Assembly (NCBI RefSeq): GCF_057098645.1
Contig: NZ_CM169472.1
Reading direction: 5' to 3' (one strand)
DNA: 64,000 nucleotides
The notes below the pieces were generated by a model, which worked only from the letters and a program-made list of their open reading frames with translations, did not search any database and had not been told where the DNA came from. Shown here one piece after another: positions 8,503 to 37,243 of the stretch (positions are counted from its first letter, which is position 1; each line of letters opens with the position of its first letter). Both the position numbers and the translations under genes were made by a program.

Positions 8503-8509
8503 TAAAGAC

Positions 8510-10183: not shown

Positions 10184-10187
10184 TCCT

Positions 10188-10264
10188 GCGTCCGTAGCTC
10201 AGTTGGTTAGAGCACCACCTTGACATGGTGGGGGTCGGTGGTTCGAGTCCACTCGGACGCACCA
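10188..10264 (+). tRNA. valW: tRNA-Val (anticodon GAC), tandem copy
   Basis: GCGTCCGTAGCTCAGTTGGTTAGAGC...GGACGCACCA, 4 nt after valV. Confidence 0.92.
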
Positions 10265-10371
10265 GATTTTCTTAATCTGGTCTTCTACTTTTTCCCTCTG
10301 CTTCTTCTCTGTATCCAATACGTTAAAAGATTTACACTGTCTTCGTATGCGTTATCAGAAGGAGAATCGCT

Positions 10372-10677
10372 ATGGCAACTTTGTTACAACTTCATTTTTC
10401 TTTCAATGGCCCATTTGGCGACGCAATGGCTGAGCAGCTTAAACCGCTTGCTGAGTCGATTAATCAGGAACCTGGTTTTCTGTGGAAGGTATGGACCGAA
10501 AGTGAAAAGAACCACGAAGCCGGTGGGATCTACCTTTTCACTGATGAAAAAAGCGCCCTTGCCTATCTGGAAAAACACACTGCCCGACTGAAAAATCTCG
10601 GCGTTGAGGAAGTTATCGCCAAAGTTTTCGATGTCAATGAGCCACTGAGTCAAATCAATCAGGCAAAACTCGCCTGA
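10372..10677 (+). CDS. ydhR: Putative monooxygenase YdhR
   Basis: 101-aa [27 protein letters not shown]... Confidence 0.9.
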
Positions 10678-10689
10678 CAGATTTTAATC

Positions 10690-10712
10690 AAGGGCGGTTA
10701 GCGCCCTTTTCA
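10690..10712 (+). terminator. Rho-independent terminator after ydhR
   Basis: AGGGCG-gttag-CGCCCT hairpin followed by TTTT. Confidence 0.7.
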
Positions 10713-10802
10713 TCCCTGTCTGAAATTTCTCAAATTCTAAAAATTTCAACCAAACTTATCTGATAACACTAAATTCGAAAGAATGCGTACAGGTAAGTAA
10801 CA

Positions 10803-12407: not shown

Positions 12408-12418
12408 AGGTAAAGCTA

Positions 12419-13231
12419 TCAGCACTCAACAAACTGATGCTGTTCATTAAGACGATAGCGGACTCCGGCTCGAATATTGTTTTCACCTTCAATGGCGACG
12501 GCGAAACGAACTCTTTCGCCGTCATGATATGCCAGTGCGGCGCTTCCTCCTGGCCCGAGAATAATTGAGTCGACCACGCCCGTGCTCACTACCGTTGAAT
12601 TTTCACCGCTGGCAATGATGTGTACATTGTCGCCGCTGTTGGCAATTCTGGCGTTTGCGCCAAAGCTGGCGATTTGCACCAGGTCACCATTACTAGCGAC
12701 ATGACATCGTTCACCCAATGTACAAACGCGTACTCGCATTCCGGTATTCGCAATCCGACTGCTATCTCCAGCGCTGCTTATCCGCGAAGAATTGCCGGTT
12801 ACAGCAACCCGTGCGCGCTCACCGGAGCTGCCAATGTGACTGTTAAAGCCGACACTTCCAATCCGCACGCTATAACCCATACTGGCAATTTGTGCAGCAT
12901 ACCCAGCGGTTGCGATTCTGGCGTTATCCTCACAACAGCCGATGCGAGCATGATCGTCGCTGCGGGCAAACTGACTGCAAAATGGTATCTCTCCGGGGTC
13001 TGTGGCCAGTTTTTGCATAGAGGAAACTTCCTGATGCGCGAAGTTTTCATCCGCCAGCCATTTTTTCCACGCATACTCAACCAGACTCTCCGCCCAGTCC
13101 GTATATCCTTCCTCAATCAGTGCATGATGAATATCGGCATAACTACCGCCGCGTGGGAAATGGCGCAGGAACCAGCGATACATCACCGCTCCGATACGCC
13201 ATTCTCGCAGGTCTGCTCGTGTAATGATCAT
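12419..13231 (-). CDS. ydhT: Uncharacterized protein YdhT (9-residue tandem repeat protein)
   Basis: 270-aa ORF; last gene of the ydhVWXUT cluster. Confidence 0.85.
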   Translation of the reverse strand: MIITRADLREWRIGAVMYRWFLRHFPRGGSYADIHHALIEEGYTDWAESLVEYAWKKWLADENFAHQEVSSMQKLATDPGEIPFCSQFARSDDHARIGCCEDNARIATAGYAAQIASMGYSVRIGSVGFNSHIGSSGERARVAVTGNSSRISSAGDSSRIANTGMRVRVCTLGERCHVASNGDLVQIASFGANARIANSGDNVHIIASGENSTVVSTGVVDSIILGPGGSAALAYHDGERVRFAVAIEGENNIRAGVRYRLNEQHQFVEC

Positions 13232-13234
13232 TCG

Positions 13235-14020
13235 TTAGTGCCGGTGATAGCCATCGACCATGCTTTTAAAGGTTTCGTGTGGCGTACGCCCCGTGGTGCA
13301 AAGATAAAGATGACCGAAGATAAAAAAGAGGCTTATAAATGCCAGAGCAAAATGCGCCTGCAATAACCAGTATCTTACGCCAGGAAACACATCTCCCACG
13401 GCTTGCGGATAGAGACACAGCAGCCCCGTCAATAGTAACAACGGCAGCAATCCATACATGACACCAACATAGGCAACCTGCTGTAAGGGATTAAATTTAG
13501 ACTGGGTTGTTGCCGGGAAAGGATGTTCTTCCCCCTGCATAATGCCAAACAAATAAAATCGCGTTTGTTTTGCCGCCCGCTCCAGCCAACCCTGACGACG
13601 AATGCGATAGTGGTGGCCATTACCCCCAACGGCATTGATCAGAACAAAGCCAAGCCAGCATGCCAGTAACAAAAATCCGCAAACTTCATGCACCGCAACC
13701 AGACTTTTAACCGCAGTTGCGCCCACCAGCGCAAAGTGATTTATCAGCCCACTTGCCAGCAACAATACAAAGAGTAACGCATTCGACCAGTGCCATAATC
13801 TGACCGCTTTGCTGTAAAGATAAATCCTCTCACCATGATCGGTGGCTGATTTCTTCACGCCACGAGCACGAAGCAAGGCGTGCTGCCCCAGCACCAACCA
13901 CATCCCAACCAGCAATACTCCGGCAATGATCAACCACACCGGCCAAAATTCGGGAGTGAACTGTGGCACATAGTTCGCTAACTGGCTCTGAAACTGTTCA
14001 GCATGTTGCGACGGGTTCAT
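13235..14020 (-). CDS. ydhU: Membrane cytochrome b-like subunit YdhU (PhsC family)
   Basis: 261-aa multi-TM ORF. Confidence 0.85.
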   Translation of the reverse strand: MNPSQHAEQFQSQLANYVPQFTPEFWPVWLIIAGVLLVGMWLVLGQHALLRARGVKKSATDHGERIYLYSKAVRLWHWSNALLFVLLLASGLINHFALVGATAVKSLVAVHEVCGFLLLACWLGFVLINAVGGNGHHYRIRRQGWLERAAKQTRFYLFGIMQGEEHPFPATTQSKFNPLQQVAYVGVMYGLLPLLLLTGLLCLYPQAVGDVFPGVRYWLLQAHFALAFISLFFIFGHLYLCTTGRTPHETFKSMVDGYHRH

Positions 14021-14685
14021 ACATTTTCCTTTTTAATCAAATGTTGACCGAACCGGCGATACAGATGCGGTTTCCCGGCACCAGGTAGCTGATATTGATA
14101 GTATTTATTATCCTGCAACCACGCCTGAATTTCTGGGCTATCTTCGCGACCAAAGATCAATGCGTGTTCCGGGCAGGCGCTGACGCAAATGGGCGGAAAG
14201 CCTTTTGCCAGTCGGGACTCAGCGCAGAAATCACATTTATCTGCCACTTTAGTGACAGGGTTAAGGTAGCGAACCTGGTACGGACAAGCGCCAATGCAAT
14301 AACTGCAGCCGATGTACTGCGATTTTTCTACCCGCACGATCCCCTGCTCATCACGCCACGACGCCCCTGTCGGGCATACGTCGATGCACGGAGCATCTTC
14401 GCAGTGCTGACATGACTGGCGAAAAAAGTGATACTGCGTTTCGTTGTCGTTATCGGTGACTGGAATGTGTGCTATCGATAAACGGCTTCCCTGAGCGGGG
14501 ACGTGATTGGTTTTACGGCATGCGCGGGCGCAAATATTACAGCCATTGCACCGTGACTCGTCATGAATCATGGCATACCGAACTTCCTTTTCTTGCCTCG
14601 TGTTCGCTAACAGAGAAGACGCAGAACCAGTAAAAAAGATTACTGTTCCCATCCCCAGAACAAATTTGCGTCGAGTGAAGGACAT
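14017..14685 (-). CDS. ydhX: 4Fe-4S ferredoxin-like protein YdhX with Tat signal
   Basis: Start chosen at MSFTRRKFVLG (twin-arginine motif) with AGGGGA Shine-Dalgarno; multiple CxxCxxCxxxCP clusters; 4-bp overlap with ydhU. Confidence 0.85.
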   Translation of the reverse strand: MSFTRRKFVLGMGTVIFFTGSASSLLANTRQEKEVRYAMIHDESRCNGCNICARACRKTNHVPAQGSRLSIAHIPVTDNDNETQYHFFRQSCQHCEDAPCIDVCPTGASWRDEQGIVRVEKSQYIGCSYCIGACPYQVRYLNPVTKVADKCDFCAESRLAKGFPPICVSACPEHALIFGREDSPEIQAWLQDNKYYQYQLPGAGKPHLYRRFGQHLIKKENV

Positions 14686-14748
14686 CTGATTATCCCCTAA
14701 TGCAGTGGCTGCAACTGTCCACCCTATCCATGACATCTCCCTGAAATT

Positions 14749-15396
14749 TCAGGGGTTCTGAAACTGCTCTACCTCGAACCATTCGCATAAGCCATAAGCC
14801 TTGCCATAGGTCATAAATCGCTCGCTAAACAAGTACAACACCGCCGTCGATGACTCCACCTGCCGTATATCGGCATATTCAGGTGCAACATCCATCGCGG
14901 CGATCGCGGCTTCAATCTGCGCTTCCTGGAAGTAATATGGCGCTTGCATCAGCATGGCGACTTTGTAAGGACGAGGATACGTCTGGCACTCAAAACGAAC
15001 GGCGTGTGCAATGGCGCGACAAATGTCCTGCTCCACAACTTGCAAAGACATCGCCGCGTAGTTTTCACTCATGGCCTGCGTTGAGTAATAGTAATCATCC
15101 TGGCTTCCCGTCATACACGCGATATCCGCGTAGTCTCCGTTCTGCTTGATGTTTTCCAGCAAAACTGACAGTTCCTCTTCTGCAACCGAATAGGGTGGCG
15201 AGAGAAACACGGTGCGCGCCACCAGCTGCCCAGCCGCAGAATGCTGGCGAATGAACTCTGCCAGGATTTCAGCCGGTTCTGGTTCCGTTACCGTATCAAC
15301 GGGGTGACGCATCCCCTGCAACCATTGCCGCTTCGCCTCGTCAACTTCGCTGACTTTCGCTAACGGCAATTCATCCCGATGGTTCATCTTACCCAT
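14749..15396 (-). CDS. ydhW: Uncharacterized protein YdhW
   Basis: 215-aa ORF. Confidence 0.85.
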   Translation of the reverse strand: MGKMNHRDELPLAKVSEVDEAKRQWLQGMRHPVDTVTEPEPAEILAEFIRQHSAAGQLVARTVFLSPPYSVAEEELSVLLENIKQNGDYADIACMTGSQDDYYYSTQAMSENYAAMSLQVVEQDICRAIAHAVRFECQTYPRPYKVAMLMQAPYYFQEAQIEAAIAAMDVAPEYADIRQVESSTAVLYLFSERFMTYGKAYGLCEWFEVEQFQNP

Positions 15397-15399
15397 TCC

Positions 15400-17247
<1,848 letters not shown>

Positions 17248-17287
17248 TTACTGATTTAGTGTATGATGGTGTTTTTGAGGTGCTCCA

Positions 17288-17563
17288 GTGGCTTCTGTTT
17301 CTATCAGCTGTCCCTCCTGTTCAGCTACTGACGGGGTGGTGCGTAACGGCAAAAGCACCGCCGGACATCAGCGCTATCTCTGCTCTCACTGCCGTAAAAC
17401 ATGGCAACTGCAGTTCACTTACACCGCTTCTCAACCCGGTACGCACCAGAAAATCATTGATATGGCCATGAATGGCGTTGGATGCCGGGCAACCGCCCGC
17501 ATTATGGGCGTTGGCCTCAACACGATTTTCCGCCATTTAAAAAACTCAGGCCGCAGTCGGTAA
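17288..17563 (+). CDS. insA: IS1 InsA
   Basis: 91-aa [42 protein letters not shown]... Confidence 0.95.
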
Positions 17564-27903: not shown

Positions 27904-28121
27904 TCAACCCAGCAAACGCAGGGGCTTTACCGTAAAACATGCTTTTTGCCTGCTTTTAATAAGCATAGACCCTGATGTGTGGGTTAACAGGCACGCTAAG
28001 AATTAGGTATCTCATTGTTAGATAATGGTTATTATCTAAGGAGCATTAAGGCTGTGATGAAAAAGAAAAGTTGTATTGAAAATGACTATTTAAGAGATAG
28101 GTAAAAAAGTGCAGCATTCAG

Positions 28122-28195
28122 AAATAAGAAAACCCTTAAGTCTGTGCGACACAGGCTTAAGGGTTTCTACCCCATCCGGCGCTTATCTCCGGCAC
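28122..28195 (-). ncRNA. rydB: Candidate small RNA RydB (structured RNA ending in an intrinsic terminator)
   Basis: Minus strand reads ...AAACCCTTAAG-cctgtgtcgcacagaC-TTAAGGGTTTTCTTATTT, a hairpin plus U-tract; the sufA-ydiH intergenic position matches my memory of rydB; 5' end approximate. Confidence 0.4.
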
Positions 28196-28388
28196 TCTCA
28201 GTGGCTTAGCTCTTGAAGGGGCGATAAGAATAATCTCATAAAGCTAACCCGCCGTTTTAACACAAACTGCGATTAGTATTATTTTTGAACAATATCAGGC
28301 GGGTAGATAAGCAGTATTAAGAAGGTCATCGAACCTGGACGGAGGTTAATCCAGGTCGATTTGGCGAACTTGCGGCATTAAGTCAGGA

Positions 28389-28577
28389 TCAATGCACGCC
28401 CAGACGCCAGGCAAAGTAGATTTCTTCTTTTAATTCAGCAGAAGAGAGAGTAAGCAGGTCAGCAAATTCAAGTTCTAGTTGTTTCAGACGTTTGAGATAT
28501 TGGGCAGGTGAAAGATTGCTCTGGTCACGGCGTAAAAATTCAATGGCCAGCTGGGTGGGATCAAGTTGAGTAGACAT
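28389..28577 (-). CDS. ydiH: Small protein YdiH
   Basis: 62-aa ORF MSTQLDPTQLAIEFLRRDQ... with GAGGA Shine-Dalgarno; longer upstream start rejected. Confidence 0.8.
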   Translation of the reverse strand: MSTQLDPTQLAIEFLRRDQSNLSPAQYLKRLKQLELEFADLLTLSSAELKEEIYFAWRLGVH

Positions 28578-28676
28578 AGCATCCTCGCTTTTAGACAAGA
28601 CCTGCACAGTATACCACCGTTTACTGTGCAGATAATGACCAAAAGCAATATGCGTCACACTTTTCTGGTGACAACG

Positions 28677-29087
28677 TCACAAAATGGCGGTCGTCAATCG
28701 TGACGAACAGCACAAACGCCCTTTCTCATCGAAGATTTCAATCTGCCAGACCTGGTGACGCGAACCGAGATGCAACGGTTTGCATACGCCGCGTACCCGC
28801 CCTTCTCGTGCCGAGCGGACGTGGTTAGCATTGATTTCCAGACCAACCACTTTTTGCTCACCTTCGGTACATAAATAACCGGCAACGGAACCGATACTTT
28901 CGGCCAGTACCACGGATGCACCTCCATGTAGCAACCCGAAAGGCTGCTTTGTCCGCGAGTCTACTGGCATTGTCGCTTCAAGGGTGTCATCACCAATATG
29001 TTCAAAGCGAATATCCAGTAACCCCACCATGTTTCCTTCACCCATGGCATTCAGTGCTTCCAGGGTGATTTTTCGTTTCCATATCAT
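28677..29087 (-). CDS. menI: 1,4-dihydroxy-2-naphthoyl-CoA thioesterase MenI (YdiI), hotdog fold
   Basis: 136-aa ORF MIWKRKITLEALNAMGEGNMVGLLDIRFEH... Confidence 0.9.
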   Translation of the reverse strand: MIWKRKITLEALNAMGEGNMVGLLDIRFEHIGDDTLEATMPVDSRTKQPFGLLHGGASVVLAESIGSVAGYLCTEGEQKVVGLEINANHVRSAREGRVRGVCKPLHLGSRHQVWQIEIFDEKGRLCCSSRLTTAIL

Positions 29088-32000
29088 TTAATAATCTCCA
29101 GTAAAGCCTGCACAGGATGGCGTACCCCCGTGCCTTCAACCCGTTTGACCTGACTACGGCAGGAATATCCGGTCGCCAGACAGCGGTTACGCGGCAGTCG
29201 CTGCATAGCCTGATGCCAGGATAACTCATAGATCCCGAGCGAATTTTTATGGTTTTTCGCTTCATGTCCGTAAGTCCCTGCCATGCCGCAGCAACCCACG
29301 CTGACATTTTCCAGTTTCGCGCCAAAACGGGCAAATATCGCGGCCCATTGTGCTGGCGCCCCCGGCAAGGAGGTAACTTCGGTACAGTGACCAAAGAAAT
29401 ACCATGATTCACCGCTGACTGTAGCCACTGGCTGTGACTCAAGTGCGCTTGCCAGCCATTCATTCGCCAGTAAGACGTTAAACTCGCCACGTTCCTCGCC
29501 CAGTGCCAGTTTATATTCATCGCGATAACAAAGTACCAGCGCCGGATCGACGCCTACCATTGGCATACCCAGCTTCGCCATACGGTTGAGGAAATCCGCC
29601 GTCTTTTTCGCCGTCTTCGCAAAACGATTAAGAAAACCTTTAATATGCTGGGCTTTGCCATTTGGCGAAAATGGCAGTAACACAGGCTGGAAACCTAATT
29701 TTTCGACCAGACGGACAAAATCCGCCACCACTTGCGCATCGTAATAGCTGGTAAAGGGGTCCTGCACCACCAACACCGTGCGCGCTTTCTGCTCTGCATT
29801 GAGAGCTTCAAGCTGTTCCAGCGTCATGTTTGCCGAGCGATGCCCCACCATTTGTTGTTGTAGCGAGGGGACCGACAGCAGCGGCAAATCAACCATGCCG
29901 ATATGTTTTTCCGAGAGTTTGCGCATCAGCGGCTGGTTAATGAAGAAGTTAAAGATTTTCGGCGCGCGTGCCATCAGCGGTGCGTAGCTCTCGACCGTAG
30001 CGACGAGGTGGTCGCGCAGCGGACGTAAATAACGGGTGTGATAGAGCTGCAGGAAACGAGAGCGAAACTCCGGCACATCAATTTTGATGGGGCACTGGGT
30101 CGAACAAGCTTTACAGGCCAGACAGCCCGACATCGCCTCTTTGACTTCGTGTGAGAAGTCATATTCGCCTTTATTCGCATGCCAGCTATTGCGCGTGCGG
30201 GCAATTAACGTCCGCAAACTGACGCCGGATTCAGGCAGTTCTTGTTCCAGTTTGAGTGGATCAACGCCGCGATCCGCCAACAAACGCAGCCATTCACGCA
30301 CCAGCGTTGCGCGCCCTTTCGGTGAATGAATCCGGTTCTGGGTGATCTTCATCGACGGACACATCGGACTACGGGCATCAAAGTTGAAGCATAAACCGTT
30401 GCCGTTACACTCCATCGCACCGCGCCACTGCTGGCGTACCGCAATGGGGATCTGCCGATCGAATGTACCGCGCTTCACCGCGTCCACTTTCATCATCGGC
30501 GCATCGAGACCTTCTGGCGGGCAAATCTTCCCTGGGTTGAGTCGGTTATGCGGATCAAATGCCGCTTTCACTTTGCGCAGTTCTGCAAAAAGTTCCTCAC
30601 CGAAAAACGCCGGGCTGTATTCAGCGCGAAAACCTTTGCCGTGCTCGCCCCACAACAAACCACCGTATTTCGCAGTCAGCGCCACCACGTCATCAGAGAT
30701 TTGCTTCATCAAAATCTCTTGTTGAGGATCGCACATATCCAGCGCTGGACGGACGTGCAAGACACCTGCGTCGACGTGACCGAACATACCGTAGCTTAAG
30801 CCGTGGCTGTCGAGCAGCGCGCGAAATTCAGCAATATAATCCGCCAGGTGTTCCGGCGGTACGCAGGTATCCTCAGCAAACGGAATTGGCTTAGCGGCAC
30901 CTTTGGCATTGCCAAGCAGACCAACGGCTTTTTTGCGCATTGCATAGATACGTTCAACCCCCGCCAGCTCACAGCACACCTGCCAGCCGATGACACCTGC
31001 TTGATGACTGGCGATCAGCTCATCCAACCGCGCACAGAGTGCATTTACCCGCTCATCAATCAGCGCCTCATCATCACCAGCAAATTCCACAATGTTCAGC
31101 CCGAGCATCTCTTTGTCAGGCACATCGGTAATCAACTCGCTGACGGAATGCCAGACAATATCTTCCCGCGCCAGATTCAGCACTTTTGAGTCCACCGTCT
31201 CTACCGAAAGCGCCCGCGCCTCAACCATAAACGGCGCGTTACGCAGCGCAGAGTCAAAAGAGTCATATTTGACATTCACCAGACGGCGCACTTTAGGCAA
31301 GCGCGTAATATCCAGCCGCGCTTCGGTAATAAAGGCCAGCGTCCCTTCTGAACCCGTCAGAATGCGCGTCAGGTCGAACTCGGTCATCTCATCGTTAAAG
31401 ACATGACGCAGATCGTAACCGGTAAGAAAGCGGTTAAGTTTGGGGAAGTTGTCGATGATTAACTGGCGTTGCTGACGGCAACGTTGATAAACCGTGTTAT
31501 AAATTCGCCCGATTGTGGTATTGGATTTACCCAGCGTTTCCGCCAGCTCGACGGGTAAAGGTTGCGTATCGAGAATATCGCCCCCCAACAACACCGCGCG
31601 TACGCCAAGTACGTGATCTGACGTTTTGCCATAGACCAGCGATCCCTGACCGGATGCATCGGTATTGATCATCCCACCGAGCGTTGCCCGGTTGCTGGTC
31701 GAAAGTTCCGGCGCAAAAAAGTAGCCGAACGGTTTCAGGTACTGATTGAGTTGATCTTTTATCACCCCGGCCTCAACGCGCACCCAGCCCTCTTCAGGGT
31801 TAATTTCGATGATGCAGTTCATATGGCGGGACATATCAACAATAATCCCCTGGTTGAGCGCCTGACCGTTAGTGCCGGTGCCGCCGCCGCGGGGGGTAAA
31901 GATCAGCGATGAATAGCGTTCCTGCGCGGCAAGACGGGCGATCAGCGCCACATCTGCGGTTGAACGCGGAAATACCACCGCATCGGGGAGAAGTTGGTAA

Positions 32001-32140
32001 ATACTGTTGTCGGTCGACATTGTCAGACGATCGGCATAACTTGTCGCCGTATCGCCGGTAAAACCTTGTTGCTCCAGCTCTTGCAAAAAATTAAGCACCA
32101 GTTGAACGACGCCGGGTGCCTGGGAAATCTGTGGAATCAT
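29084..32140 (-). CDS. ydiJ: FAD-linked oxidase with C-terminal Fe-S domain, YdiJ
   Basis: Start chosen at MIPQISQAPGVV (1018 aa); 4-bp overlap with menI. Confidence 0.9.
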   Translation of the reverse strand: MIPQISQAPGVVQLVLNFLQELEQQGFTGDTATSYADRLTMSTDNSIYQLLPDAVVFPRSTADVALIARLAAQERYSSLIFTPRGGGTGTNGQALNQGIIVDMSRHMNCIIEINPEEGWVRVEAGVIKDQLNQYLKPFGYFFAPELSTSNRATLGGMINTDASGQGSLVYGKTSDHVLGVRAVLLGGDILDTQPLPVELAETLGKSNTTIGRIYNTVYQRCRQQRQLIIDNFPKLNRFLTGYDLRHVFNDEMTEFDLTRILTGSEGTLAFITEARLDITRLPKVRRLVNVKYDSFDSALRNAPFMVEARALSVETVDSKVLNLAREDIVWHSVSELITDVPDKEMLGLNIVEFAGDDEALIDERVNALCARLDELIASHQAGVIGWQVCCELAGVERIYAMRKKAVGLLGNAKGAAKPIPFAEDTCVPPEHLADYIAEFRALLDSHGLSYGMFGHVDAGVLHVRPALDMCDPQQEILMKQISDDVVALTAKYGGLLWGEHGKGFRAEYSPAFFGEELFAELRKVKAAFDPHNRLNPGKICPPEGLDAPMMKVDAVKRGTFDRQIPIAVRQQWRGAMECNGNGLCFNFDARSPMCPSMKITQNRIHSPKGRATLVREWLRLLADRGVDPLKLEQELPESGVSLRTLIARTRNSWHANKGEYDFSHEVKEAMSGCLACKACSTQCPIKIDVPEFRSRFLQLYHTRYLRPLRDHLVATVESYAPLMARAPKIFNFFINQPLMRKLSEKHIGMVDLPLLSVPSLQQQMVGHRSANMTLEQLEALNAEQKARTVLVVQDPFTSYYDAQVVADFVRLVEKLGFQPVLLPFSPNGKAQHIKGFLNRFAKTAKKTADFLNRMAKLGMPMVGVDPALVLCYRDEYKLALGEERGEFNVLLANEWLASALESQPVATVSGESWYFFGHCTEVTSLPGAPAQWAAIFARFGAKLENVSVGCCGMAGTYGHEAKNHKNSLGIYELSWHQAMQRLPRNRCLATGYSCRSQVKRVEGTGVRHPVQALLEIIK

Positions 32141-32528
32141 TATATTGACCCTTTCCTGCGGTCTGTGATGTAGGTCGATACACTGTTCTTTCAGGCGGCT
32201 GCAATAGCGCACAGAAAGGTGATGTTTATTTACTCTATGGATTTCGAGTTGCAGGAAGGCGGCAAGCGAGTGAACTCCAGGAGCTTACAACAGTAAGTAA
32301 CTGGGGTGAACGAACGTAGCCGCAGCATATGCAACTTGAAATACGACGAGTAAATCGTTTGCGTGTTGCCTGAGTTGTTGTACCACATTTTTTTCTAACA
32401 CGCCCATCAGAATTAAGGGCAGAATCGGCCTGTTAAAAACCGCTGAAATTGCTCATCATTATGCAGGTGAGTTTCGCGTGTTCACGTCGCGTCGACGATT
32501 TGACGCACAAAAAAGGTGAAAAGTAGTT

Positions 32529-33641
32529 ATGGTAAATGTTCGTCAGCCCAGGGATGTCGCACAAATTCTGCTTTCGGTGCTGTTTTTAGCCATCATGATT
32601 GTGGCATGTCTGTGGATTGTTCAACCCTTTATTCTCGGCTTTGCATGGGCCGGTACGGTGGTTATCGCCACCTGGCCGGTATTGTTACGTTTGCAAAAGA
32701 TCATGTTTGGCCGCCGCTCTCTCGCCGTTCTGGTGATGACACTGTTATTAGTGATGGTGTTTATCATCCCTATTGCTTTGCTGGTTAACAGTATCGTCGA
32801 CGGCAGCGGCCCGCTAATTAAAGCCATTTCCAGCGGTGACATGACGTTACCCGATCTGGCGTGGCTTAATACCATTCCGGTGATTGGCGCGAAGCTATAT
32901 GCAGGCTGGCACAACTTGCTGGATATGGGGGGGACGGCGATCATGGCGAAAGTCCGCCCTTATATTGGCACCACCACCACCTGGTTCGTTGGGCAAGCGG
33001 CGCATATCGGGCGCTTTATGGTGCATTGTGCGCTGATGCTTCTCTTCAGTGCCCTGCTGTACTGGCGCGGTGAACAGGTGGCACAAGGCATTCGCCATTT
33101 TGCAACCCGTCTGGCAGGCGTTCGCGGAGATGCCGCCGTGCTGCTGGCGGCACAGGCTATCCGCGCGGTGGCGCTGGGTGTGGTGGTGACGGCGTTAGTA
33201 CAGGCAGTGCTTGGCGGTATCGGCCTCGCCGTATCCGGCGTACCTTATGCAACGTTGCTAACGGTGTTAATGATCCTCTCCTGCCTTGTCCAGCTTGGCC
33301 CGTTGCCGGTACTGATTCCGGCGATTATCTGGCTCTACTGGACCGGCGATACCACCTGGGGAACGGTATTGTTAGTGTGGAGCGGTGTGGTTGGCACGCT
33401 GGATAACGTCATCCGCCCAATGTTAATTCGCATGGGTGCCGATTTACCGCTGATCCTGATCCTCTCTGGCGTTATTGGTGGTTTGATTGCTTTCGGGATG
33501 ATCGGTCTGTTTATTGGTCCGGTTCTGTTAGCCGTTTCCTGGCGTCTGTTTGCCGCGTGGGTGGAAGAAGTCCCGCCGCCGACGGACCAACCGGAAGAAA
33601 TTCTCGAAGAACTTGGCGAAATCGAGAAACCGAATAAGTAA
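32529..33641 (+). CDS. ydiK: AI-2E-family inner-membrane transporter YdiK
   Basis: 370-aa multi-TM ORF. Confidence 0.9.
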   Translation: MVNVRQPRDVAQILLSVLFLAIMIVACLWIVQPFILGFAWAGTVVIATWPVLLRLQKIMFGRRSLAVLVMTLLLVMVFIIPIALLVNSIVDGSGPLIKAISSGDMTLPDLAWLNTIPVIGAKLYAGWHNLLDMGGTAIMAKVRPYIGTTTTWFVGQAAHIGRFMVHCALMLLFSALLYWRGEQVAQGIRHFATRLAGVRGDAAVLLAAQAIRAVALGVVVTALVQAVLGGIGLAVSGVPYATLLTVLMILSCLVQLGPLPVLIPAIIWLYWTGDTTWGTVLLVWSGVVGTLDNVIRPMLIRMGADLPLILILSGVIGGLIAFGMIGLFIGPVLLAVSWRLFAAWVEEVPPPTDQPEEILEELGEIEKPNK

Positions 33642-33647
33642 TTTCTC

Positions 33648-33674
33648 ATCAGGCGGCTCTGCCGCCTGATTGTT
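33648..33674 (+). terminator. Rho-independent terminator after ydiK
   Basis: ATCAGGCGG-ctct-GCCGCCTGAT followed by TGTT. Confidence 0.55.
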
Positions 33675-33826
33675 AACCACCGCTAATTGATATTTGCTTG
33701 CTCTTCCCCATATTTTCCTGCGTACCGCCATTCAGCTGGTAGTACCTGTCGCAAATTCTTTACAGTTTTTAAACTAATGAGACGAATCTGATCGACGCAA
33801 AAAGTCCGTATGCCTACTATTAGCTC

Positions 33827-33931
33827 ACGGTTATAAATCAACATATTGATTTATAAGCATGGAAATCCCCTGAGTGAAACAACGAATTGCTGTGTGTAGT
33901 CTTTGCCCATCTCCCACGATGGGCTTTTTTT
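33827..33931 (+). ncRNA. rprA: Small regulatory RNA RprA
   Basis: ACGGTTATAAATCAACATATTGATTTATAAGCATGGAAATCCCCTGAGTGAAACAACGAATTGCTGTGTGTAGTCTTTGCCCATCTCCCACGATGGGCTTTTTTT recognised as RprA, ending in a terminator hairpin and T-run. Confidence 0.9.
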
Positions 33932-34069
33932 TAACATTTTTCCGCTTCGCTACCTCGCCCCTCACTCTTTCCAATAATGTTGCACAAGATACTGTGACTC
34001 TCTTCAAGCCGTCAGCAAGCTGATAATGTTATTTATATTTTATTGTTTATTTCATGCAGCCATTACACG

Positions 34070-34426
34070 ATGAACGCTTATGAACTCCAGGCACTCCGCC
34101 ATATTTTTGCCATGACTATTGAAGAATGCGCGACCTGGATTGCCCAGACCGGTGACAGTGAAAGCTGGCGTCAATGGGAAAATGGCAAGTGTGCCATTCC
34201 TGATTGTGTAGTCGAGCAACTGTTGGCTATGCGTCAGCAAAGAAAAAAACATCTTCATGCCATCATAGAGAAAATAAATAACCGCATCGGCAACAACACC
34301 ATGCGTTTTTTCCCCGACTTAACCGCATTTCAACGAGTCTACCCTGATTGCAATTTTATTGACTGGAAGATCTATCAATCGGTAGCCGCTGAATTATATG
34401 CACACGATCTGGAGCGGCTTTGTTAA
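34070..34426 (+). CDS. ydiL: Uncharacterized protein YdiL
   Basis: 118-aa ORF from MNAYELQALRHIF... Confidence 0.8.
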   Translation: MNAYELQALRHIFAMTIEECATWIAQTGDSESWRQWENGKCAIPDCVVEQLLAMRQQRKKHLHAIIEKINNRIGNNTMRFFPDLTAFQRVYPDCNFIDWKIYQSVAAELYAHDLERLC

Positions 34427-34525
34427 TTTTTCCACAGAAAGGAATTGTCGTTGTTACAACAATAATGAATGGATACTGACACAACATCGCTACACTTTTT
34501 AAAGCACCTTTGCTAAGTAGAACCT

Positions 34526-35740
34526 ATGAAAAATCCCTATTACCCTACCGCACTTGGGTTGTATTTTAATTACCTAGTGCATGGTATGGGCGTCATTTTG
34601 ATGAGCCTGAATATGGCCTCGCTGGAGACACTTTGGCAGACTAATGCCGCGGGTGTCTCGATAGTTATCTCATCGCTGGGCATTGGTCGATTAAGTGTCT
34701 TGCTTTTTGCAGGATTATTATCCGATCGCTTTGGTCGCCGCCCTTTTATCATGCTCGGGATGTGCTGCTATATGGCCTTCTTTTTTGGCATCCTACACAC
34801 CAATAACATCATTATCGCTTATATTTTTGGCTTTCTGGCGGGAATGGCAAACAGTTTTCTCGATGCAGGCACTTATCCCAGTTTGATGGAAGCTTTTCCA
34901 CGCTCACCTGGGACAGCCAATATTTTAATTAAAGCATTTGTTTCCAGCGGACAATTTTTATTACCGCTAATCATTAGCCTGTTAGTGTGGGCTGAACTGT
35001 GGTTCGGTTGGTCCTTTATGATTGCTGCAGGCATTATGTTTATTAACGCTCTTTTTTTATACCGTTGTACGTTCCCACCCCATCCGGGTCGTCGCTTACC
35101 TGTCATAAAGAAAACCACCAGCTCTACGGAACATCGCTGTTCAATTATCGATTTAGCCAGTTATACCTTATATGGCTATATCTCAATGGCAACGTTTTAT
35201 CTGGTTAGCCAGTGGCTGGCACAGTACGGACAATTTGTTGCAGGCATGTCGTACACTATGTCGATCAAACTACTCAGTATCTACACCGTGGGTTCGCTGC
35301 TTTGTGTATTTATTACCGCTCCACTCATTCGTAATACCGTTCGCCCAACAACATTACTGATGCTGTACACCTTTATCTCATTTATTGCTCTGTTTACCGT
35401 CTGCCTGCATCCCACATTTTATGTGGTGATAATATTTGCTTTTGTCATTGGTTTTACCTCTGCTGGAGGTGTTGTGCAAATTGGCCTGACGTTAATGGCT
35501 GAACGTTTCCCTTACGCTAAAGGTAAAGCTACAGGGATCTATTACAGTGCGGGCAGTATTGCGACCTTTACTATTCCGTTGATTACGGCTCATCTGTCCC
35601 AAAGAAGTATTGCCGATATTATGTGGTTCGATACCGCCATCGCTGCCATCGGTTTTTTACTGGCACTGTTTATCGGCTTACGCAGCCGCAAAAAAACGCG
35701 GCATCACTCGCTAAAGGAAAATGTCGCTCCGGGTGGGTAA
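34526..35740 (+). CDS. ydiM: MFS transporter YdiM
   Basis: 404-aa multi-TM ORF. Confidence 0.85.
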   Translation: MKNPYYPTALGLYFNYLVHGMGVILMSLNMASLETLWQTNAAGVSIVISSLGIGRLSVLLFAGLLSDRFGRRPFIMLGMCCYMAFFFGILHTNNIIIAYIFGFLAGMANSFLDAGTYPSLMEAFPRSPGTANILIKAFVSSGQFLLPLIISLLVWAELWFGWSFMIAAGIMFINALFLYRCTFPPHPGRRLPVIKKTTSSTEHRCSIIDLASYTLYGYISMATFYLVSQWLAQYGQFVAGMSYTMSIKLLSIYTVGSLLCVFITAPLIRNTVRPTTLLMLYTFISFIALFTVCLHPTFYVVIIFAFVIGFTSAGGVVQIGLTLMAERFPYAKGKATGIYYSAGSIATFTIPLITAHLSQRSIADIMWFDTAIAAIGFLLALFIGLRSRKKTRHHSLKENVAPGG

Positions 35741-35966
35741 TGCAATATTCTTTTCAGGTCATGCAAGATCTTACGGATAAATAACTCTTTCTGCGCTAAC
35801 TAAGGAAAATCGCGATCAAAAAAAAACTATGACATGCAATATTCCTGGAAACATAAACTTTATGCCATGTACCCAGGGAAAATCATCTTCAGTATAGTAA
35901 TTATGTAAACCGTCGGAGAACAATACGTACGGTAACGAAATTATCTTTCAGCAAGGAGCTGTGAAA

Positions 35967-37232
35967 ATGTCTCAAAATAAGGCTTTCAGCACGCCATTTA
36001 TCCTGGCTGTTCTTTGTATTTACTTCAGCTACTTCCTGCACGGCATTAGTGTTATTACGCTTGCCCAAAATATGTCATCTCTGGCGGAAAAGTTTTCCAC
36101 TGACAACGCGGGCATTGCCTACTTAATTTCCGGTATCGGTTTGGGGCGATTGATCAGTATTTTATTCTTCGGTGTGATCTCCGATAAGTTTGGTCGTCGG
36201 GCGGTGATATTAATGGCAGTAATAATGTATCTGCTATTCTTCTTTGGTATTCCCGCTTGCCCGAATTTAACTCTCGCCTACGGTCTGGCAGTGTGCGTAG
36301 GTATCGCTAACTCAGCGCTGGATACGGGTGGCTACCCCGCGCTCATGGAATGCTTTCCGAAAGCCTCTGGTTCGGCGGTCATACTGGTTAAAGCGATGGT
36401 GTCATTCGGGCAAATGTTCTACCCAATGCTGGTGAGCTATATGTTGCTCAATAATATCTGGTACGGCTATGGGCTGATTATTCCGGGTATTCTGTTTGTA
36501 CTGATCACGCTGATGCTGTTGAAAAGCAAATTCCCCAGCCAGTTGGTGGACGCCAGCGTAGCTAATGAATTACCGCAAATGAACAGCAAACCGTTAGTCT
36601 GGCTGGAAGGTGTTTCATCGGTACTGTTCGGTGTAGCCGCATTCTCGACCTTTTATGTGATTGTGGTGTGGATGCCCAAATATGCGATGGCTTTTGCTGG
36701 TATGTCAGAAGCTGAGGCATTAAAAACCATCTCTTATTACAGTATGGGCTCGTTGGTCTGTGTCTTTATTTTTGCCGCACTACTGAAAAAAATGGTCCGG
36801 CCCATCTGGGCTAATGTATTTAACTCTGCACTGGCAACAATAACAGCAGCCATTATCTACCTGTACCCTTCTCCACTGGTGTGTAATGCCGGCGCCTTTG
36901 TTATCGGTTTCTCAGCAGCTGGCGGCATTTTACAGCTCGGTGTTTCGGTCATGTCAGAGTTTTTCCCAAAAAGCAAAGCCAAAGTCACCAGTATTTATAT
37001 GATGATGGGTGGACTGGCTAACTTTGTTATTCCGCTGATTACCGGTTATCTGTCGAACATCGGCCTGCAATATATCATTGTTCTCGATTTTACTTTCGCG
37101 CTGCTGGCCCTGATTACCGCAATTATTGTTTTTATCCGCTATTACCGCGTTTTTATTATTCCTGAGAATGATGTGCGGTTTGGCGAGCGCAAATTTAGCA
37201 CCCGGTTAAACACAATTAAGCATAGAGGTTAA
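35967..37232 (+). CDS. ydiN: MFS transporter YdiN
   Basis: 421-aa multi-TM ORF paralogous to ydiM. Confidence 0.85.
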
Positions 37233-37243
37233 AGGAGTTAATT

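What the first reader, a model, noticed from the sequence alone, without database searches (positions are those of the whole stretch)
34043..37232. AT-rich block ydiL-ydiM-ydiN with duplicated MFS transporters
ydiL, ydiM and ydiN look visibly more AT-rich than the flanking suf and aroD genes. ydiM and ydiN are paralogous MFS transporters placed immediately upstream of the quinate/shikimate dehydrogenase ydiB and aroD. This suggests a horizontally acquired or duplicated uptake module for hydroaromatic substrates whose substrates are undefined.
Basis: inference. Interest (0 to 1): 0.3.

Follow-up and report, generated by a model that had tools for sequence, protein, structure and literature searches.

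The report
AT-rich ydiL-ydiM-ydiN transporter block
This AT-rich stretch of the E. coli chromosome is an old, conserved set of genes (a small regulator-like protein and two distantly related membrane transporters) next to quinate/shikimate enzymes, not a recently imported island, and most of this was already published.

Summary
Window 34043-37232 has 44.1% GC against 50.0% for the window, and only 1.9% of equal-sized windows are as low. ydiM and ydiN are full-length MFS paralogues (37% identity) directly upstream of ydiB-aroD.

- The block is core: about 98% of 5,426 E. coli genomes carry it, it is syntenic in Salmonella and Citrobacter, and dN/dS is 0.03-0.16.
- It has no tRNA, integrase or flanking repeats.
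- ydiM and ydiN are AT-rich largely through amino-acid composition (FYMINK-rich), a family trait in every host. Their third-position GC tracks the host. ydiN codon usage is typical.
- ydiM and ydiN are ancient paralogues, not a local duplication. YdiM is closer to Firmicute transporters (about 47%) than to YdiN (36%).

The hydroaromatic link is supported by context. In relatives the same block carries a QuiR-type shikimate-sensing LysR regulator between ydiM and ydiN, and a shikimate kinase after ydiL. The E. coli lineage lacks both. Ancient exchange with Firmicutes is plausible but unproven. Substrates remain untested.

The shikimate linkage, the Firmicute affinity and YdiL's Aca2 fold were published in 2021-2023. 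A conserved 24-nt box shared by the ydiN and ydiQ promoters is a new side observation.

The parts
33827..33934 (+). rprA small RNA. It lies inside the AT-rich zone just upstream of ydiL and is context, not part of the transporter module.
   Evidence: Rfam RF00034, 118.5 bits against a gathering score of 70. Terminator hairpin at 33905-33924 followed by a T-run.
34070..34426 (+). ydiL, a 118-aa Aca2/YdiL-family helix-turn-helix protein and presumed DNA-binding regulator.
   Evidence: Pfam Aca2_YdiL 205.9 bits. PDB 1S4K at E 9e-46 and Aca2 at E 2e-14. GC 0.456. GC3 stays about 0.44 in every host. dN/dS 0.07-0.16.
34427..34525 (.). ydiL-ydiM spacer (99 nt, GC 0.354). In Serratia, Symbiopectobacterium, Brenneria and Prodigiosinella a shikimate kinase gene occupies this position.
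   Evidence: Spacer GC. Shikimate kinase: Pfam SKI E 3.5e-47, found in L022, L023, L025, L029, L038 and L051. No homologue in this part of the window.
34526..35740 (+). ydiM, a 404-aa MFS transporter of the type found between ydiB-like and aroD-like genes in Klebsiella and Firmicutes.
   Evidence: Pfam MFS_1 135 bits. Identity is about 62% to the Klebsiella type, about 47% to Firmicute homologues and 36% to the YdiN clade. GC3 0.462 against 0.565 expected. dN/dS 0.06-0.09.
35741..35966 (.). ydiM-ydiN spacer (226 nt, GC 0.358). It is the presumed ydiN promoter region. Relatives carry a divergent QuiR-type LysR gene here; E. coli has none.
   Evidence: The quiR-like gene lies between ydiM and ydiN in L022-L032, L038 and L051. 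It is absent from the window and from 5,426 E. coli genomes at blastn sensitivity.
35835..35858 (+). Conserved 24-nt box TGCAATATTCCTGGAAACATAAAC, 132 nt upstream of the ydiN ATG. A TATAGT -10-like hexamer lies 34 nt downstream of the box.
   Evidence: Exact pattern match. The same box lies upstream of ydiN in most Enterobacterales loci, with or without quiR. Its role is inferred.
35967..37232 (+). ydiN, a 421-aa MFS transporter and first gene of the tightly spaced ydiN-ydiB-aroD run.
   Evidence: Pfam MFS_1 115 bits. Orthologues at 64-98% identity occur only in Proteobacteria and are always followed by ydiB-aroD-ydiF. GC3 0.526, z = -1.1. dN/dS 0.03-0.07.
37244..38110 (+). ydiB, NAD(P)-dependent quinate/shikimate dehydrogenase.
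   Evidence: NCBIfam NF009390 667.6 bits against a cut-off of 349.
38141..38899 (+). aroD, type I 3-dehydroquinate dehydratase.
   Evidence: TIGR01093 293 bits; Pfam DHquinase_I.
39045..48133 (.). ydiF, ydiO (frameshifted here), ydiP (minus strand, 1-nt deletion here), ydiQ, ydiR, ydiS, ydiT and fadK. These encode a CoA-transferase, an acyl-CoA dehydrogenase, an AraC regulator, ETF-type proteins and an acyl-CoA ligase. They travel with ydiN-ydiB-aroD in every Enterobacterales locus and in Sutterella.
   Evidence: Annotation. Synteny. Frameshifts.
42947..42970 (+). Second copy of the box (TGCAAGATTGTTGGCAAGGAAAAC), 126 nt upstream of ydiQ in the ydiP/ydiQ divergent spacer.
   Evidence: 2 mismatches, with 0.07 matches expected per window. 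Conserved at this position in most block-bearing loci.

Best explanation
ydiL-ydiM-ydiN is the upstream part of an old, chromosomally fixed block for handling hydroaromatic acids (quinate, shikimate, 3-dehydroshikimate).

**The transporters.** ydiM and ydiN encode two anciently diverged 12-helix MFS carriers. ydiN is packed against ydiB (NAD-linked quinate/shikimate dehydrogenase) and aroD (type I dehydroquinase).

**Most likely mechanism (inferred).** Proton-coupled movement of quinate or shikimate-type acids across the inner membrane is coupled to YdiB and AroD. Imported quinate would go to dehydroquinate, then dehydroshikimate, and enter the chorismate pathway as a salvage route. Under overflow the same steps would run in reverse, with export.

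**Why it is AT-rich (shown).**
- The transporter family and YdiL are rich in FYMINK residues, in every host.
- The spacers are AT-rich.
- In Escherichia the whole ydiL-to-ydiF stretch has a mild third-position GC deficit.
- Recent import is not the cause.

**Regulation (inferred).** Relatives keep a QuiR-type shikimate-sensing LysR activator between ydiM and ydiN, and a shikimate kinase after ydiL. The Escherichia/Salmonella/Citrobacter/Kosakonia lineage lacks both. This leaves YdiL and possibly the AraC-type YdiP as the local regulators.

**Origin (inferred).** The family's distribution suggests an ancient exchange of a quiR/ydiB/MFS/aroD module between Firmicutes and Enterobacterales.
For: **Composition**
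- Region GC is 0.441, in the 1.9th percentile of the window.
- Amino-acid composition accounts for about 80% of the GC deficit of ydiN, 55% for ydiL and 35% for ydiM. This compares expected GC given the amino acids with observed GC.
- FYMINK/GARP ratios are 1.49 (YdiN), 1.35 (YdiL) and 1.27 (YdiM). These rank 1st, 3rd and 5th of 53 proteins. Other membrane proteins in the window give 0.48-0.84. Homologues from Klebsiella, Sutterella and Firmicutes give 1.0-1.8.
- In 34 loci, ydiM and ydiN GC3 track neighbouring genes (r = 0.82 and 0.90) and are not lower than them.

**Core status**
- At least 80% of the query is covered in 5303-5318 of 5426 E. coli genomes.
- The order is the same in Salmonella, Citrobacter and other Escherichia species.
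- dN/dS is 0.03-0.16, with intact ORFs.
- No tRNA gene or island-type repeats are present.

**Paralogy**
- 37% identity.
- NJ bootstrap support is 100 for the YdiN clade, 100 for the YdiM clade and 100 for YdiM plus the Klebsiella type. The split YdiM+Klebsiella-type+Firmicutes against YdiN+outgroup gets 85. YdiM+YdiN monophyly gets 0.

**Hydroaromatic context**
- Every YdiM/YdiN homologue locus with enough flank carries a ydiB-like gene, and most also carry an aroD-like gene.
- A LysR gene is associated in 48 loci. Its effector domain matches Listeria QuiR (Lmo0488, PDB 5TED) at E 9e-66 and 3e-64.
- QuiR binds shikimate and activates the qui operons (bioRxiv 10.1101/2025.04.08.647683).
- A shikimate kinase gene follows ydiL in six loci from four genera; in two loci it is fragmented.

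**Published support**
- ydiN, ydiB and aroD are co-induced under carbon limitation. Deleting ydiN raised shikimate titre about 1.3-fold (PMC4585142, PMC8788726).
- About 75% of YdiM/YdiN homologues lie next to a shikimate-pathway gene, and about 57% of the top hits are Firmicutes (PMC10588857).
Against: - No transport assay exists for either protein, and neither direction nor substrate is known.
- YdiM has been linked experimentally to bo3 oxidase activity and copper/iron uptake (PMC10588857) and to isoprenol tolerance (cited there).
- Neither protein reaches the NCBIfam aromatic-acid:H+ symporter model (about 40 bits against a cut-off of 418).
- Neither has a relative of solved structure.
- E. 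coli has ShiA as its known shikimate importer, and it lacks QuiR. The inducible logic seen in relatives therefore cannot be assumed here.
- About 2% of E. coli strains have lost ydiM and/or ydiN through IS1 deletions while keeping ydiB-aroD. The transporters are therefore dispensable.
- The tree root rests on one distant outgroup (PunC, about 20% identity). Long-branch attraction between YdiN and the outgroup is possible.
Confidence: 0.62

Rival explanations
1. The block is a recently acquired foreign island. AT-rich DNA was imported from a low-GC donor, is probably silenced by H-NS, and is not yet adapted to E. coli.
For: - GC is 6 points below the window mean.
- ydiM GC3 has z = -4.5 and ydiM CAI is 5th lowest of 53.
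- Homologues are abundant in Firmicutes (PMC10588857).
- ydiL was not expressed in 22 laboratory conditions in Salmonella (PMC8434428).
- The ydiL promoter is off in culture and on in the mouse gut (PMC6561318).
Against: - The block is present in about 98% of E. coli genomes.
- It is syntenic in Salmonella, Citrobacter and all Escherichia species sampled.
- GC3 equals the neighbours' in 34 loci from hosts of differing GC.
- ydiN codon usage is typical.
- dN/dS is 0.03-0.16.
- There is no tRNA, integrase or flanking repeat.
- IslandViewer found no island at ydiL in Salmonella (PMC8434428).
Confidence: 0.04
2. ydiM and ydiN are the product of a tandem duplication in the enterobacterial lineage. 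YdiN then diverged quickly.
For: - The genes are adjacent, on the same strand, and alignable over their full length.
- YdiN orthologues are confined to Proteobacteria.
- YdiN sits on a long branch, so its position next to the distant outgroup could be an artefact.
- Tandem pairs of this transporter family also occur in Sporolactobacillus and Bacillus massiliigorillae.
Against: - YdiM is 47% (up to 58%) identical to Firmicute homologues but only 36% to YdiN. YdiN is equally distant from all groups, at 36-37%.
- The split grouping YdiN+YdiM+Klebsiella-type against Firmicutes has 0 of 100 bootstrap support.
- YdiN evolves more slowly than YdiM today: dN is 0.022 against 0.066 versus E. albertii. 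This argues against a generally fast YdiN clock.
Confidence: 0.12
3. The transporters are not hydroaromatic carriers. YdiM imports a metal or another small molecule needed for bo3 oxidase, or acts as a general efflux pump. The linkage to ydiB-aroD is historical only.
For: - A ydiM deletion lowers bo3 quinol oxidase activity and alters copper uptake kinetics (PMC10588857).
- There is no match to a curated aromatic-acid transporter model.
- E. coli lacks QuiR.
Against: - The gene order ydiB/MFS/aroD with a QuiR-type regulator recurs across phyla: Lactobacillaceae, Megasphaera, Paenibacillus, Clostridium and Klebsiella. This is hard to explain without a shared substrate.
- Fusions of YdiM homologues to chorismate mutase are reported (PMC10588857).
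- A ydiN deletion changes shikimate titre (PMC8788726).
Confidence: 0.2

Closest known systems
Listeria monocytogenes qui1/qui2 operons under QuiR (Lmo0488, PDB 5TED)
   Same: - The LysR regulator found next to ydiB/MFS/aroD in relatives matches the QuiR effector domain at E 9e-66 and 3e-64.
- The operons combine quinate/shikimate dehydrogenase and dehydroquinase functions and respond to shikimate (bioRxiv 10.1101/2025.04.08.647683).
   Different: - The E. coli block has no QuiR gene.
- Listeria channels the flux to protocatechuate through a dehydroshikimate dehydratase. I did not look for such a gene here, and from my own knowledge E. coli K-12 has none.
YdiM/YdiN subfamily as described by Khalfaoui-Hassani and colleagues, PLoS One 2023 (PMC10588857; TC 2.A.1.15.12 and 2.A.1.15.13; B. 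subtilis YfkL)
   Same: These are the same genes. That paper already reports the paralogy, the restriction to Enterobacterales, the Firmicute majority among homologues, the linkage to ydiB, aroD and aroK in about 75% of cases, and the Klebsiella ydiB-ydiM-aroD arrangement.
   Different: The sections of that paper I read do not mention base composition, the QuiR-type regulator or its absence in E. coli, co-transfer with ydiF through fadK, or the shared promoter box.
ShiA, the characterised E. coli shikimate/dehydroshikimate:H+ importer
   Same: It is an MFS carrier for a shikimate-pathway intermediate in the same organism. It is discussed together with YdiN in shikimate-production work (PMC8788726).
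   Different: From my own knowledge, ShiA belongs to a different MFS family (metabolite:H+ symporters), lies elsewhere on the chromosome, and is not linked to ydiB or aroD. I did not compare the sequences here.
Aca2, the anti-CRISPR-associated repressor of phage ZF40
   Different: YdiL is a core chromosomal gene with no anti-CRISPR gene upstream. In four genera it is followed within about 10 nt by a shikimate kinase gene.
Carnitine (Cai/Fix) and caffeate (Car) enoyl-CoA reduction systems
   Same: The genes downstream of aroD have the same part list: CoA-transferase (ydiF), acyl-CoA dehydrogenase (ydiO), ETF-type proteins (ydiQRST) and acyl-CoA ligase (fadK), as annotated. The comparison of part lists is from my own knowledge.
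   Different: No substrate is known. The genes have been assigned to anaerobic fatty-acid oxidation (my own knowledge). A link to hydroaromatics is only suggested by synteny and the shared box.

Membership tests
Major facilitator superfamily (Pfam MFS_1) | Match to the MFS_1 profile above the gathering score across both six-helix halves | tested here: met
   YdiM 135.1 bits and YdiN 114.9 bits, against a cut-off of 33.4. The matches cover residues 12-349 and 18-335.
Major facilitator superfamily (Pfam MFS_1) | Motif A (G-x-x-x-D-R/K-x-G-R-R/K) in the loop between helices 2 and 3 | tested here: met
   YdiM has GLLSDRFGRRP and YdiN has [11 protein letters not shown] (translations). G69, S72, D73, F75, G76 and R77 are invariant or nearly so in alignment A1.
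Aromatic acid:H+ symporter family (TC 2.A.1.15; NCBIfam TIGR00895) | Score at or above the curated cut-off of the family model | tested here: not met
   YdiM 39.7 bits and YdiN 40.9 bits, against a cut-off of 418.55, with only the N-terminal 80-90 residues aligned. The TCDB numbers 2.A.1.15.12 and 2.A.1.15.13 are quoted from PMC10588857.
Aromatic acid:H+ symporter family (TC 2.A.1.15; NCBIfam TIGR00895) | Demonstrated transport of an aromatic or hydroaromatic acid | not testable with these tools
   No assay is reported in the papers read.
Horizontally acquired genomic island | Base composition differs from the host | tested here: met
   GC 0.441 against 0.500, in the 1.9th percentile.
Horizontally acquired genomic island | Synonymous codon usage differs from host genes | tested here: inconclusive
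   ydiN is typical (z = -1.1, bias 0.219, 4th lowest of 53). ydiL has z = -1.4. ydiM has z = -4.5, but ydiF (-3.9), ydhS (-4.0) and ydiV (-3.5) are similar. GC3 matches the neighbours' in 34 other loci.
Horizontally acquired genomic island | Variable presence among strains of the species | tested here: not met
   Present in about 98% of 5,426 genomes. The exceptions examined are IS1 deletions.
Horizontally acquired genomic island | Mobility hallmarks: tRNA or integrase at the border and flanking direct repeats | tested here: not met
   No tRNA gene in 28000-44000. Only short, chance-level repeats. No integrase is annotated.
Aca2/YdiL family (Pfam PF08965) | Full-length profile match | tested here: met
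   205.9 bits against 23.8, covering residues 1-118 of 118. PDB 1S4K at E 9e-46.
Aca2/YdiL family (Pfam PF08965) | Anti-CRISPR operon context (an acr gene directly upstream, in a phage or mobile element) | tested here: not met
   The upstream neighbour is the sRNA gene rprA, then ydiK. [quoted passage not shown]
QuiR-controlled quinate/shikimate module | Adjacent QuiR-type LysR regulator | tested here: not met
   Absent from the window: the only LysR hit is PunR, at 21% identity. Absent from E. coli genomes at blastn sensitivity. Present in relatives.
QuiR-controlled quinate/shikimate module | YdiB-type quinate/shikimate dehydrogenase and type I dehydroquinase next to the transporter | tested here: met
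   NF009390 at 667.6 bits and TIGR01093 at 293 bits. Intergenic gaps are 11 nt and 30 nt.
QuiR-controlled quinate/shikimate module | Dehydroshikimate dehydratase giving protocatechuate | not tested
   No search was made for this enzyme in the window or the loci.
Local tandem gene duplication | The two copies are each other's closest relatives | tested here: not met
   YdiM+YdiN monophyly has 0 of 100 bootstrap support. YdiM is 47-62% identical to other clades and 36% to YdiN. The root depends on one distant outgroup.

The most novel reading that the evidence does not exclude
ydiN-ydiB-aroD is not a stand-alone salvage unit. It is the entry arm of one conserved regulon of about 14 kb: ydiL-ydiM-ydiN-ydiB-aroD-ydiF-ydiO-ydiP-ydiQRST-fadK.

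**Evidence for a single unit**
- The whole set moves together. It is intact in Enterobacterales at different chromosomal sites. It is also found in the gut betaproteobacterium Sutterella at 50-84% amino-acid identity.
- The ydiN and ydiQ promoters share a conserved 24-nt box, possibly bound by the AraC-type YdiP.

**Proposed chemistry**
- The downstream genes have the same part list as the carnitine (Cai/Fix) and caffeate (Car) systems.
- The block could therefore import shikimate-type cyclohexene carboxylates, activate them as CoA thioesters, and reduce the ring double bond with ETF-delivered electrons.
- That would be an anaerobic electron sink in the gut. It is a candidate route for the long-known microbial conversion of dietary quinate and shikimate to reduced cyclohexane carboxylates.
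Probability: 0.1. Interest if true: 0.6.

Novelty: already known. Interest (0 to 1): 0.22.

Why it matters
**The finding as stated is ordinary.**
- The genes are annotated and core.
- Their link to the shikimate pathway and their Firmicute affinity were published in 2023.
- YdiL's Aca2 fold was published in 2021.

**The useful correction.** A visible GC dip does not by itself mark foreign DNA. Here much of the dip, about 80% for ydiN, comes from the amino-acid make-up of a transporter family.

**What remains of modest value**
- The comparative picture predicts shikimate or quinate as the signal and cargo. The Escherichia/Salmonella lineage lacks the QuiR-type sensor and the shikimate kinase that relatives retain.
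- The shared box upstream of ydiN and ydiQ gives a concrete handle on two poorly understood E. coli operons.
- If the transporters do carry quinate or shikimate, this bears on how gut enterobacteria use abundant plant acids. It also bears on shikimate-production strains.

Tried and rejected
- **First coordinate map.** Mapping UTME-3 coordinates onto the whole window failed. The window and that strain differ by indels outside the centre. I redid it by blastn and offset search.
- **First tree.** The first NJ tree used a Kimura distance that gave undefined values for the outgroup, so the supports are unreliable. I repeated it with Poisson distances and cite only that run.
- **CAI.** I treat CAI as secondary to the window-internal measures.
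- **Promoter and terminator scan.** The consensus scan of 33600-39100 found no more sites than shuffles did. It does not define the operon structure.
- **PDB searches.** Sequence searches with YdiM and YdiN found nothing.
- **QuiR in the window.** The first tblastn of the QuiR-like protein against the window missed even PunR. This looked like a search artefact. A repeat with default settings and with phmmer found PunR only, and nothing in 33600-37300.
- **Literature.** Searches linking ydiO or ydiF to shikimate or quinate found nothing relevant. Published YdiP ChIP-exo (glucose M9) lists no site at ydiN or ydiQ.
- **TyrR.** I considered whether the conserved box is a TyrR box. By eye it fits the TGTAAA-N6-TTTACA consensus poorly, so I rejected this.
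- **Sutterella and 'Martelella'.** The regions upstream of ydiN gave no informative ORFs.
- **H-NS.** Binding could not be assessed. The one search gave only table mentions.

Full report
**What the window is.** The central part of the window is E. coli chromosome. Positions 33600-37300 are 100% identical to strain UTME-3 and 97-99% identical to thousands of other genomes.

Transferred annotation and blastn mapping give this order:
- ydiJ (minus strand)
- ydiK 32529-33641
- rprA 33827-33934 (Rfam, 118.5 bits)
- ydiL 34070-34426
- ydiM 34526-35740
- ydiN 35967-37232
- ydiB 37244-38110
- aroD 38141-38899
- ydiF 39045-40640
- ydiO, ydiP (minus strand), ydiQRST and fadK

**Checking the observation.** The interval 34043-37232 has GC 0.441, against 0.500 for the window. 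Only 1.9% of 3190-bp windows are as low, and apart from one other trough near 17956 they are this same locus. Per gene, ydiL (0.456), ydiM (0.447) and ydiN (0.458) rank 4th, 2nd and 5th lowest of 53 genes. The median is 0.511, the suf genes are 0.487-0.553 and aroD is 0.509. The spacers are lower still, at 0.354 and 0.358, as is usual for intergenic DNA here (mean 0.42). YdiM and YdiN align over their full length at 37% identity, E 5e-86, and both are Pfam MFS_1 proteins.

**Where the low GC comes from.** For each gene I computed the GC expected from its amino-acid sequence under the pooled synonymous codon usage of the other window genes.

| Gene | Expected GC | Observed GC | GC3 observed / expected | z | Share of deficit from amino acids |
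|---|---|---|---|---|---|
| ydiN | 0.468 | 0.458 | 0.526 / 0.552 | -1.1 | about 80% |
| ydiL | 0.480 | 0.456 | 0.470 / 0.531 | -1.4 | about 55% |
| ydiM | 0.487 | 0.447 | 0.462 / 0.565 | -4.5 | about 35% |

- ydiN's codon-bias distance of 0.219 is the 4th most typical of 53.
- ydiM is the lowest z in the window, but ydhS (-4.0), ydiF (-3.9) and ydiV (-3.5) are comparable.
- The proteins are unusually rich in residues with AT-rich codons. FYMINK/GARP is 1.49 for YdiN, 1.35 for YdiL and 1.27 for YdiM. These rank 1st, 3rd and 5th of 53. Other membrane proteins in the window (PunC, MdtK, YdiK, BtuC, PhsC) give 0.48-0.84.
- The bias is a family trait. Homologues in Klebsiella (1.26), GC-rich Sutterella (1.00-1.15) and Firmicutes (1.17-1.80) share it.
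- In 34 loci from other hosts, mean GC3 of ydiM (0.582) and ydiN (0.573) is not below that of ydiB, aroD and ydiF (0.54-0.56). It tracks them (r = 0.82 and 0.90). In Escherichia the whole ydiL-to-ydiF stretch, except aroD, has modestly low GC3 (0.44-0.53).
- ydiL behaves differently. Its GC3 stays near 0.44 (range 0.32-0.51) whatever the host (r = 0.30). I cannot explain this.

**Is it an island?** No.
- The block covers at least 80% of the query in 5303 of 5426 E. coli genomes. The figures are 5313 for ydiL+ydiM and 5318 for ydiN.
- Two exceptions I opened are IS1-mediated deletions inside ydiL-ydiM-ydiN that leave ydiB-aroD intact.
- The order ydiJ/ydiK/ydiL/ydiM/ydiN/ydiB/aroD/ydiF is the same in other Escherichia species, Citrobacter and Salmonella.
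- All three genes are intact and under purifying selection. dN/dS is 0.03-0.16 against four Escherichia lineages. ydiL and ydiM evolve two to three times faster than ydiN.
- There is no tRNA gene, no integrase and no meaningful flanking repeat.

**Wider distribution.** A scan of one genome per species, followed by tblastn annotation of the 80 loci, gave three patterns.
- *YdiN orthologues (64-98% identity).* These occur in Escherichia, Citrobacter, Kosakonia, Serratia, Yersinia, Brenneria, Dickeya, Prodigiosinella, Symbiopectobacterium and the betaproteobacterium Sutterella, with Telmatospirillum at 51%. Among loci at 64% identity or more, every one with enough flank has ydiN followed by ydiB-aroD-ydiF-ydiO. 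Most then have ydiP and ydiQRST.
- *Upstream flank.* Outside Escherichia, Citrobacter and Salmonella the upstream flank is different: no ydiK or ydiJ lies within 10 kb. The unit that is conserved is therefore the whole run of about 14 kb from ydiL to fadK, not ydiLMN.
- *Sutterella.* It carries ydiN-ydiB-aroD-ydiF-ydiO with a divergent ydiQRST-fadK at 51-84% amino-acid identity to E. coli. YdiF is 83% identical. From general knowledge this is too high for vertical descent between these classes, so the block has moved horizontally as a whole. Its GC3 of 0.66-0.89 shows it is fully adapted there.

**The paralogues.** Below about 45% identity to YdiN, the hits are Lactobacillaceae, Sporolactobacillus, Bacillus, Paenibacillus, Clostridium and Megasphaera/Colibacter, plus Klebsiella, Phytobacter and one Kosakonia.
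- In these, a single transporter usually sits between a ydiB-like and an aroD-like gene. It resembles YdiM (42-61%) more than YdiN (34-43%).
- In a neighbour-joining tree with Poisson distances and 100 bootstraps, the YdiN clade, the YdiM clade and YdiM+Klebsiella-type each get 100.
- The split YdiM+Klebsiella-type+Firmicutes against YdiN+outgroup gets 85. A grouping of YdiN with YdiM gets 0.
- Mean identities: YdiM-Klebsiella type 62%, YdiM-Firmicutes 47%, YdiM-YdiN 36%, YdiN-Firmicutes 37%.
- The two E. coli genes are therefore ancient paralogues, not a local duplication. The caveat is that the root depends on one distant outgroup (PunC).
- The Klebsiella cluster (YdiB 51%, YdiM 58-61%, AroD 55-57% to E. 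coli) is a separate version at another locus. No E. coli genome has it.

**Genes that relatives have and E. coli lacks.**
- *QuiR-type regulator.* In Yersinia, Serratia, Symbiopectobacterium, Brenneria, Dickeya and Prodigiosinella, a 300-aa LysR-type gene lies between ydiM and ydiN, divergent from ydiN.
  - Homologues lie just after aroD in Klebsiella and Phytobacter (64-66% identity).
  - In many Firmicute loci, notably the Lactobacillaceae, a homologue lies divergently just upstream of ydiB-MFS-aroD; in others it is a few kb away (31-53% identity).
  - Its effector domain matches PDB 5TED (Lmo0488) at E 9e-66. The next best hit, BenM, scores 1e-25. The Klebsiella copy scores 3e-64.
  - Lmo0488 is QuiR. 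It was crystallised with shikimate and is the shikimate-dependent activator of the Listeria qui operons (bioRxiv 10.1101/2025.04.08.647683).
  - Escherichia, Citrobacter, Kosakonia and Salmonella have no such gene, and no E. coli genome matches it at blastn sensitivity.
  - QuiR diverges in parallel with YdiM across the same clades, so loss in the Enterobacteriaceae lineage is the simpler reading. This is an inference.
- *Shikimate kinase.* In Serratia, Symbiopectobacterium, Brenneria and Prodigiosinella a shikimate kinase gene starts about 10 nt after ydiL. It matches Pfam SKI at E 3.5e-47. This ties YdiL itself to the pathway.

**How it most likely works.**
- *Shown:* the gene content, the order, the conservation, the regulator homology and the basis of the composition.
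- *Inferred:* YdiN, and probably YdiM, move quinate or shikimate-type acids across the membrane. YdiB and AroD connect these acids to dehydroquinate and dehydroshikimate, and so to chorismate synthesis. Flow could run either way depending on supply.
- *Published support:* ydiN, ydiB and aroD are co-induced under carbon limitation in a shikimate producer (reviewed in PMC4585142). Deleting ydiN gave a 1.3-fold rise in shikimate titre (PMC8788726). The 2023 phylogenomic analysis supports the linkage (PMC10588857).
- *Against a simple reading:* the same 2023 paper ties ydiM to bo3 oxidase activity and metal uptake. The proteins do not reach the curated aromatic-acid symporter model. No structure or assay exists.
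- *YdiL:* it is an Aca2-fold helix-turn-helix protein. Its promoter is silent in culture and active in the mouse gut (PMC6561318).

**A side observation.**
- The ydiM-ydiN spacer contains a conserved box, TGCAATATTCCTGGAAACATAAAC, at 35835-35858. This is 132 nt before the ydiN ATG. A TATAGT hexamer lies 34 nt downstream of the box.
- A second copy with two mismatches lies at 42947-42970, 126 nt before ydiQ, in the ydiP/ydiQ divergent spacer. The chance expectation is 0.07 matches per window.
- In 38 block-bearing loci (1.6 Mb scanned), 62 of 63 matches with up to two mismatches lie upstream of ydiN or ydiQ. This holds in genomes with and without quiR.
- ydiP (AraC family) is present in all Enterobacterales block loci with enough downstream flank. 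Weaker homologues are present in Sutterella seckii (50%) and next to aroD in Megasphaera paucivorans (37%).
- A shared regulator is the natural reading, and YdiP is the obvious candidate. This is inference. Published YdiP ChIP-exo in glucose minimal medium reports no site here.
- Both ydiO and ydiP appear frameshifted in this window.

**Novelty and verdict.** The finding as written describes annotated core genes. Their paralogy, shikimate linkage, enterobacterial restriction and Firmicute relatives were published in 2023 (PMC10588857). YdiL's relation to Aca2 was published in 2021 (PMC8434428). I rate it as already known and of low interest.

The points I did not find in the papers read are:
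- the amino-acid basis of the GC dip;
- the absence of the QuiR-type regulator and shikimate kinase from the Escherichia lineage;
- the block-level transfer to Sutterella;
- the box shared by the ydiN and ydiQ promoters.

The last two leave open a more interesting reading. The whole ydiL-to-fadK run may be one regulon that couples hydroaromatic import to CoA-dependent reduction. I give this about 10%.

Noticed in passing
window 35835-35858 and 42947-42970: A conserved 24-nt box (TGCAA[T/G]A-N4-TG-N2-AAC-N2-AAAC) lies upstream of both ydiN and ydiQ. In 38 related loci, 62 of 63 matches sit at these two promoters, whether or not quiR is present. This suggests a shared regulator, possibly YdiP.
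   Followed up: partly
window 40600-41804 (ydiO) and 41847-42757 (ydiP): ydiO is frameshifted near 41540, as also flagged in UTME-3. ydiP has a 1-nt deletion in an A-run near 42143 relative to UTME-3, which breaks the frame around codon 205, within the AraC DNA-binding region. This could be real decay or a homopolymer sequencing error.
   Followed up: partly
window 34070-34426 and ydiL in loci L003-L051: ydiL third-position GC stays near 0.44 (0.32-0.51) in every host. That is on average 0.105 below neighbouring genes and barely correlated with them (r = 0.30). ydiM and ydiN track the host. I have no explanation.
   Followed up: partly
L084 (E. coli PEC414) and L085 (E. coli USMARC-51688): About 2% of E. 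coli genomes lack part of ydiL-ydiM-ydiN. The two cases opened are IS1-mediated deletions that keep ydiB-aroD.
   Followed up: partly
L037 and L040 (Sutterella seckii and S. wadsworthensis): A gut betaproteobacterium carries ydiN-ydiB-aroD-ydiF-ydiO plus a divergent ydiQRST-fadK at 51-84% amino-acid identity to E. coli, with host-like GC3 (0.66-0.89). This indicates an old horizontal transfer of the whole block.
   Followed up: partly
L077-L082 (Klebsiella, Phytobacter, Kosakonia sp. S29): These genomes have a distinct ydiB-MFS-aroD-quiR cluster only 51-61% identical to the E. coli proteins and at another locus. Their type I dehydroquinase in this cluster is therefore not a simple orthologue of E. 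coli aroD.
   Followed up: no
L069 (Megasphaera paucivorans) 5561-16899: A quiR-like gene lies a few kb upstream of ydiB-MFS-aroD. That cluster is followed by a ydiP-like AraC gene (37%) and a ydiF-like CoA-transferase (60%). This echoes the enterobacterial linkage in a Firmicute.
   Followed up: no
window 32529-38899 versus L004-L006: Synonymous divergence from other Escherichia lineages is uneven. Against Escherichia sp. E1V33, dS is 0.50-0.84 for ydiL, ydiM and ydiN but 0.11 for ydiK and aroD. This suggests recombination mosaicism around the block.
   Followed up: no
window 15400-17300: The window differs from UTME-3 by indels in the ydhY/ydhV region. ydhY gave no match, and only residues from nucleotide 270 onward of ydhV aligned.
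   Followed up: no
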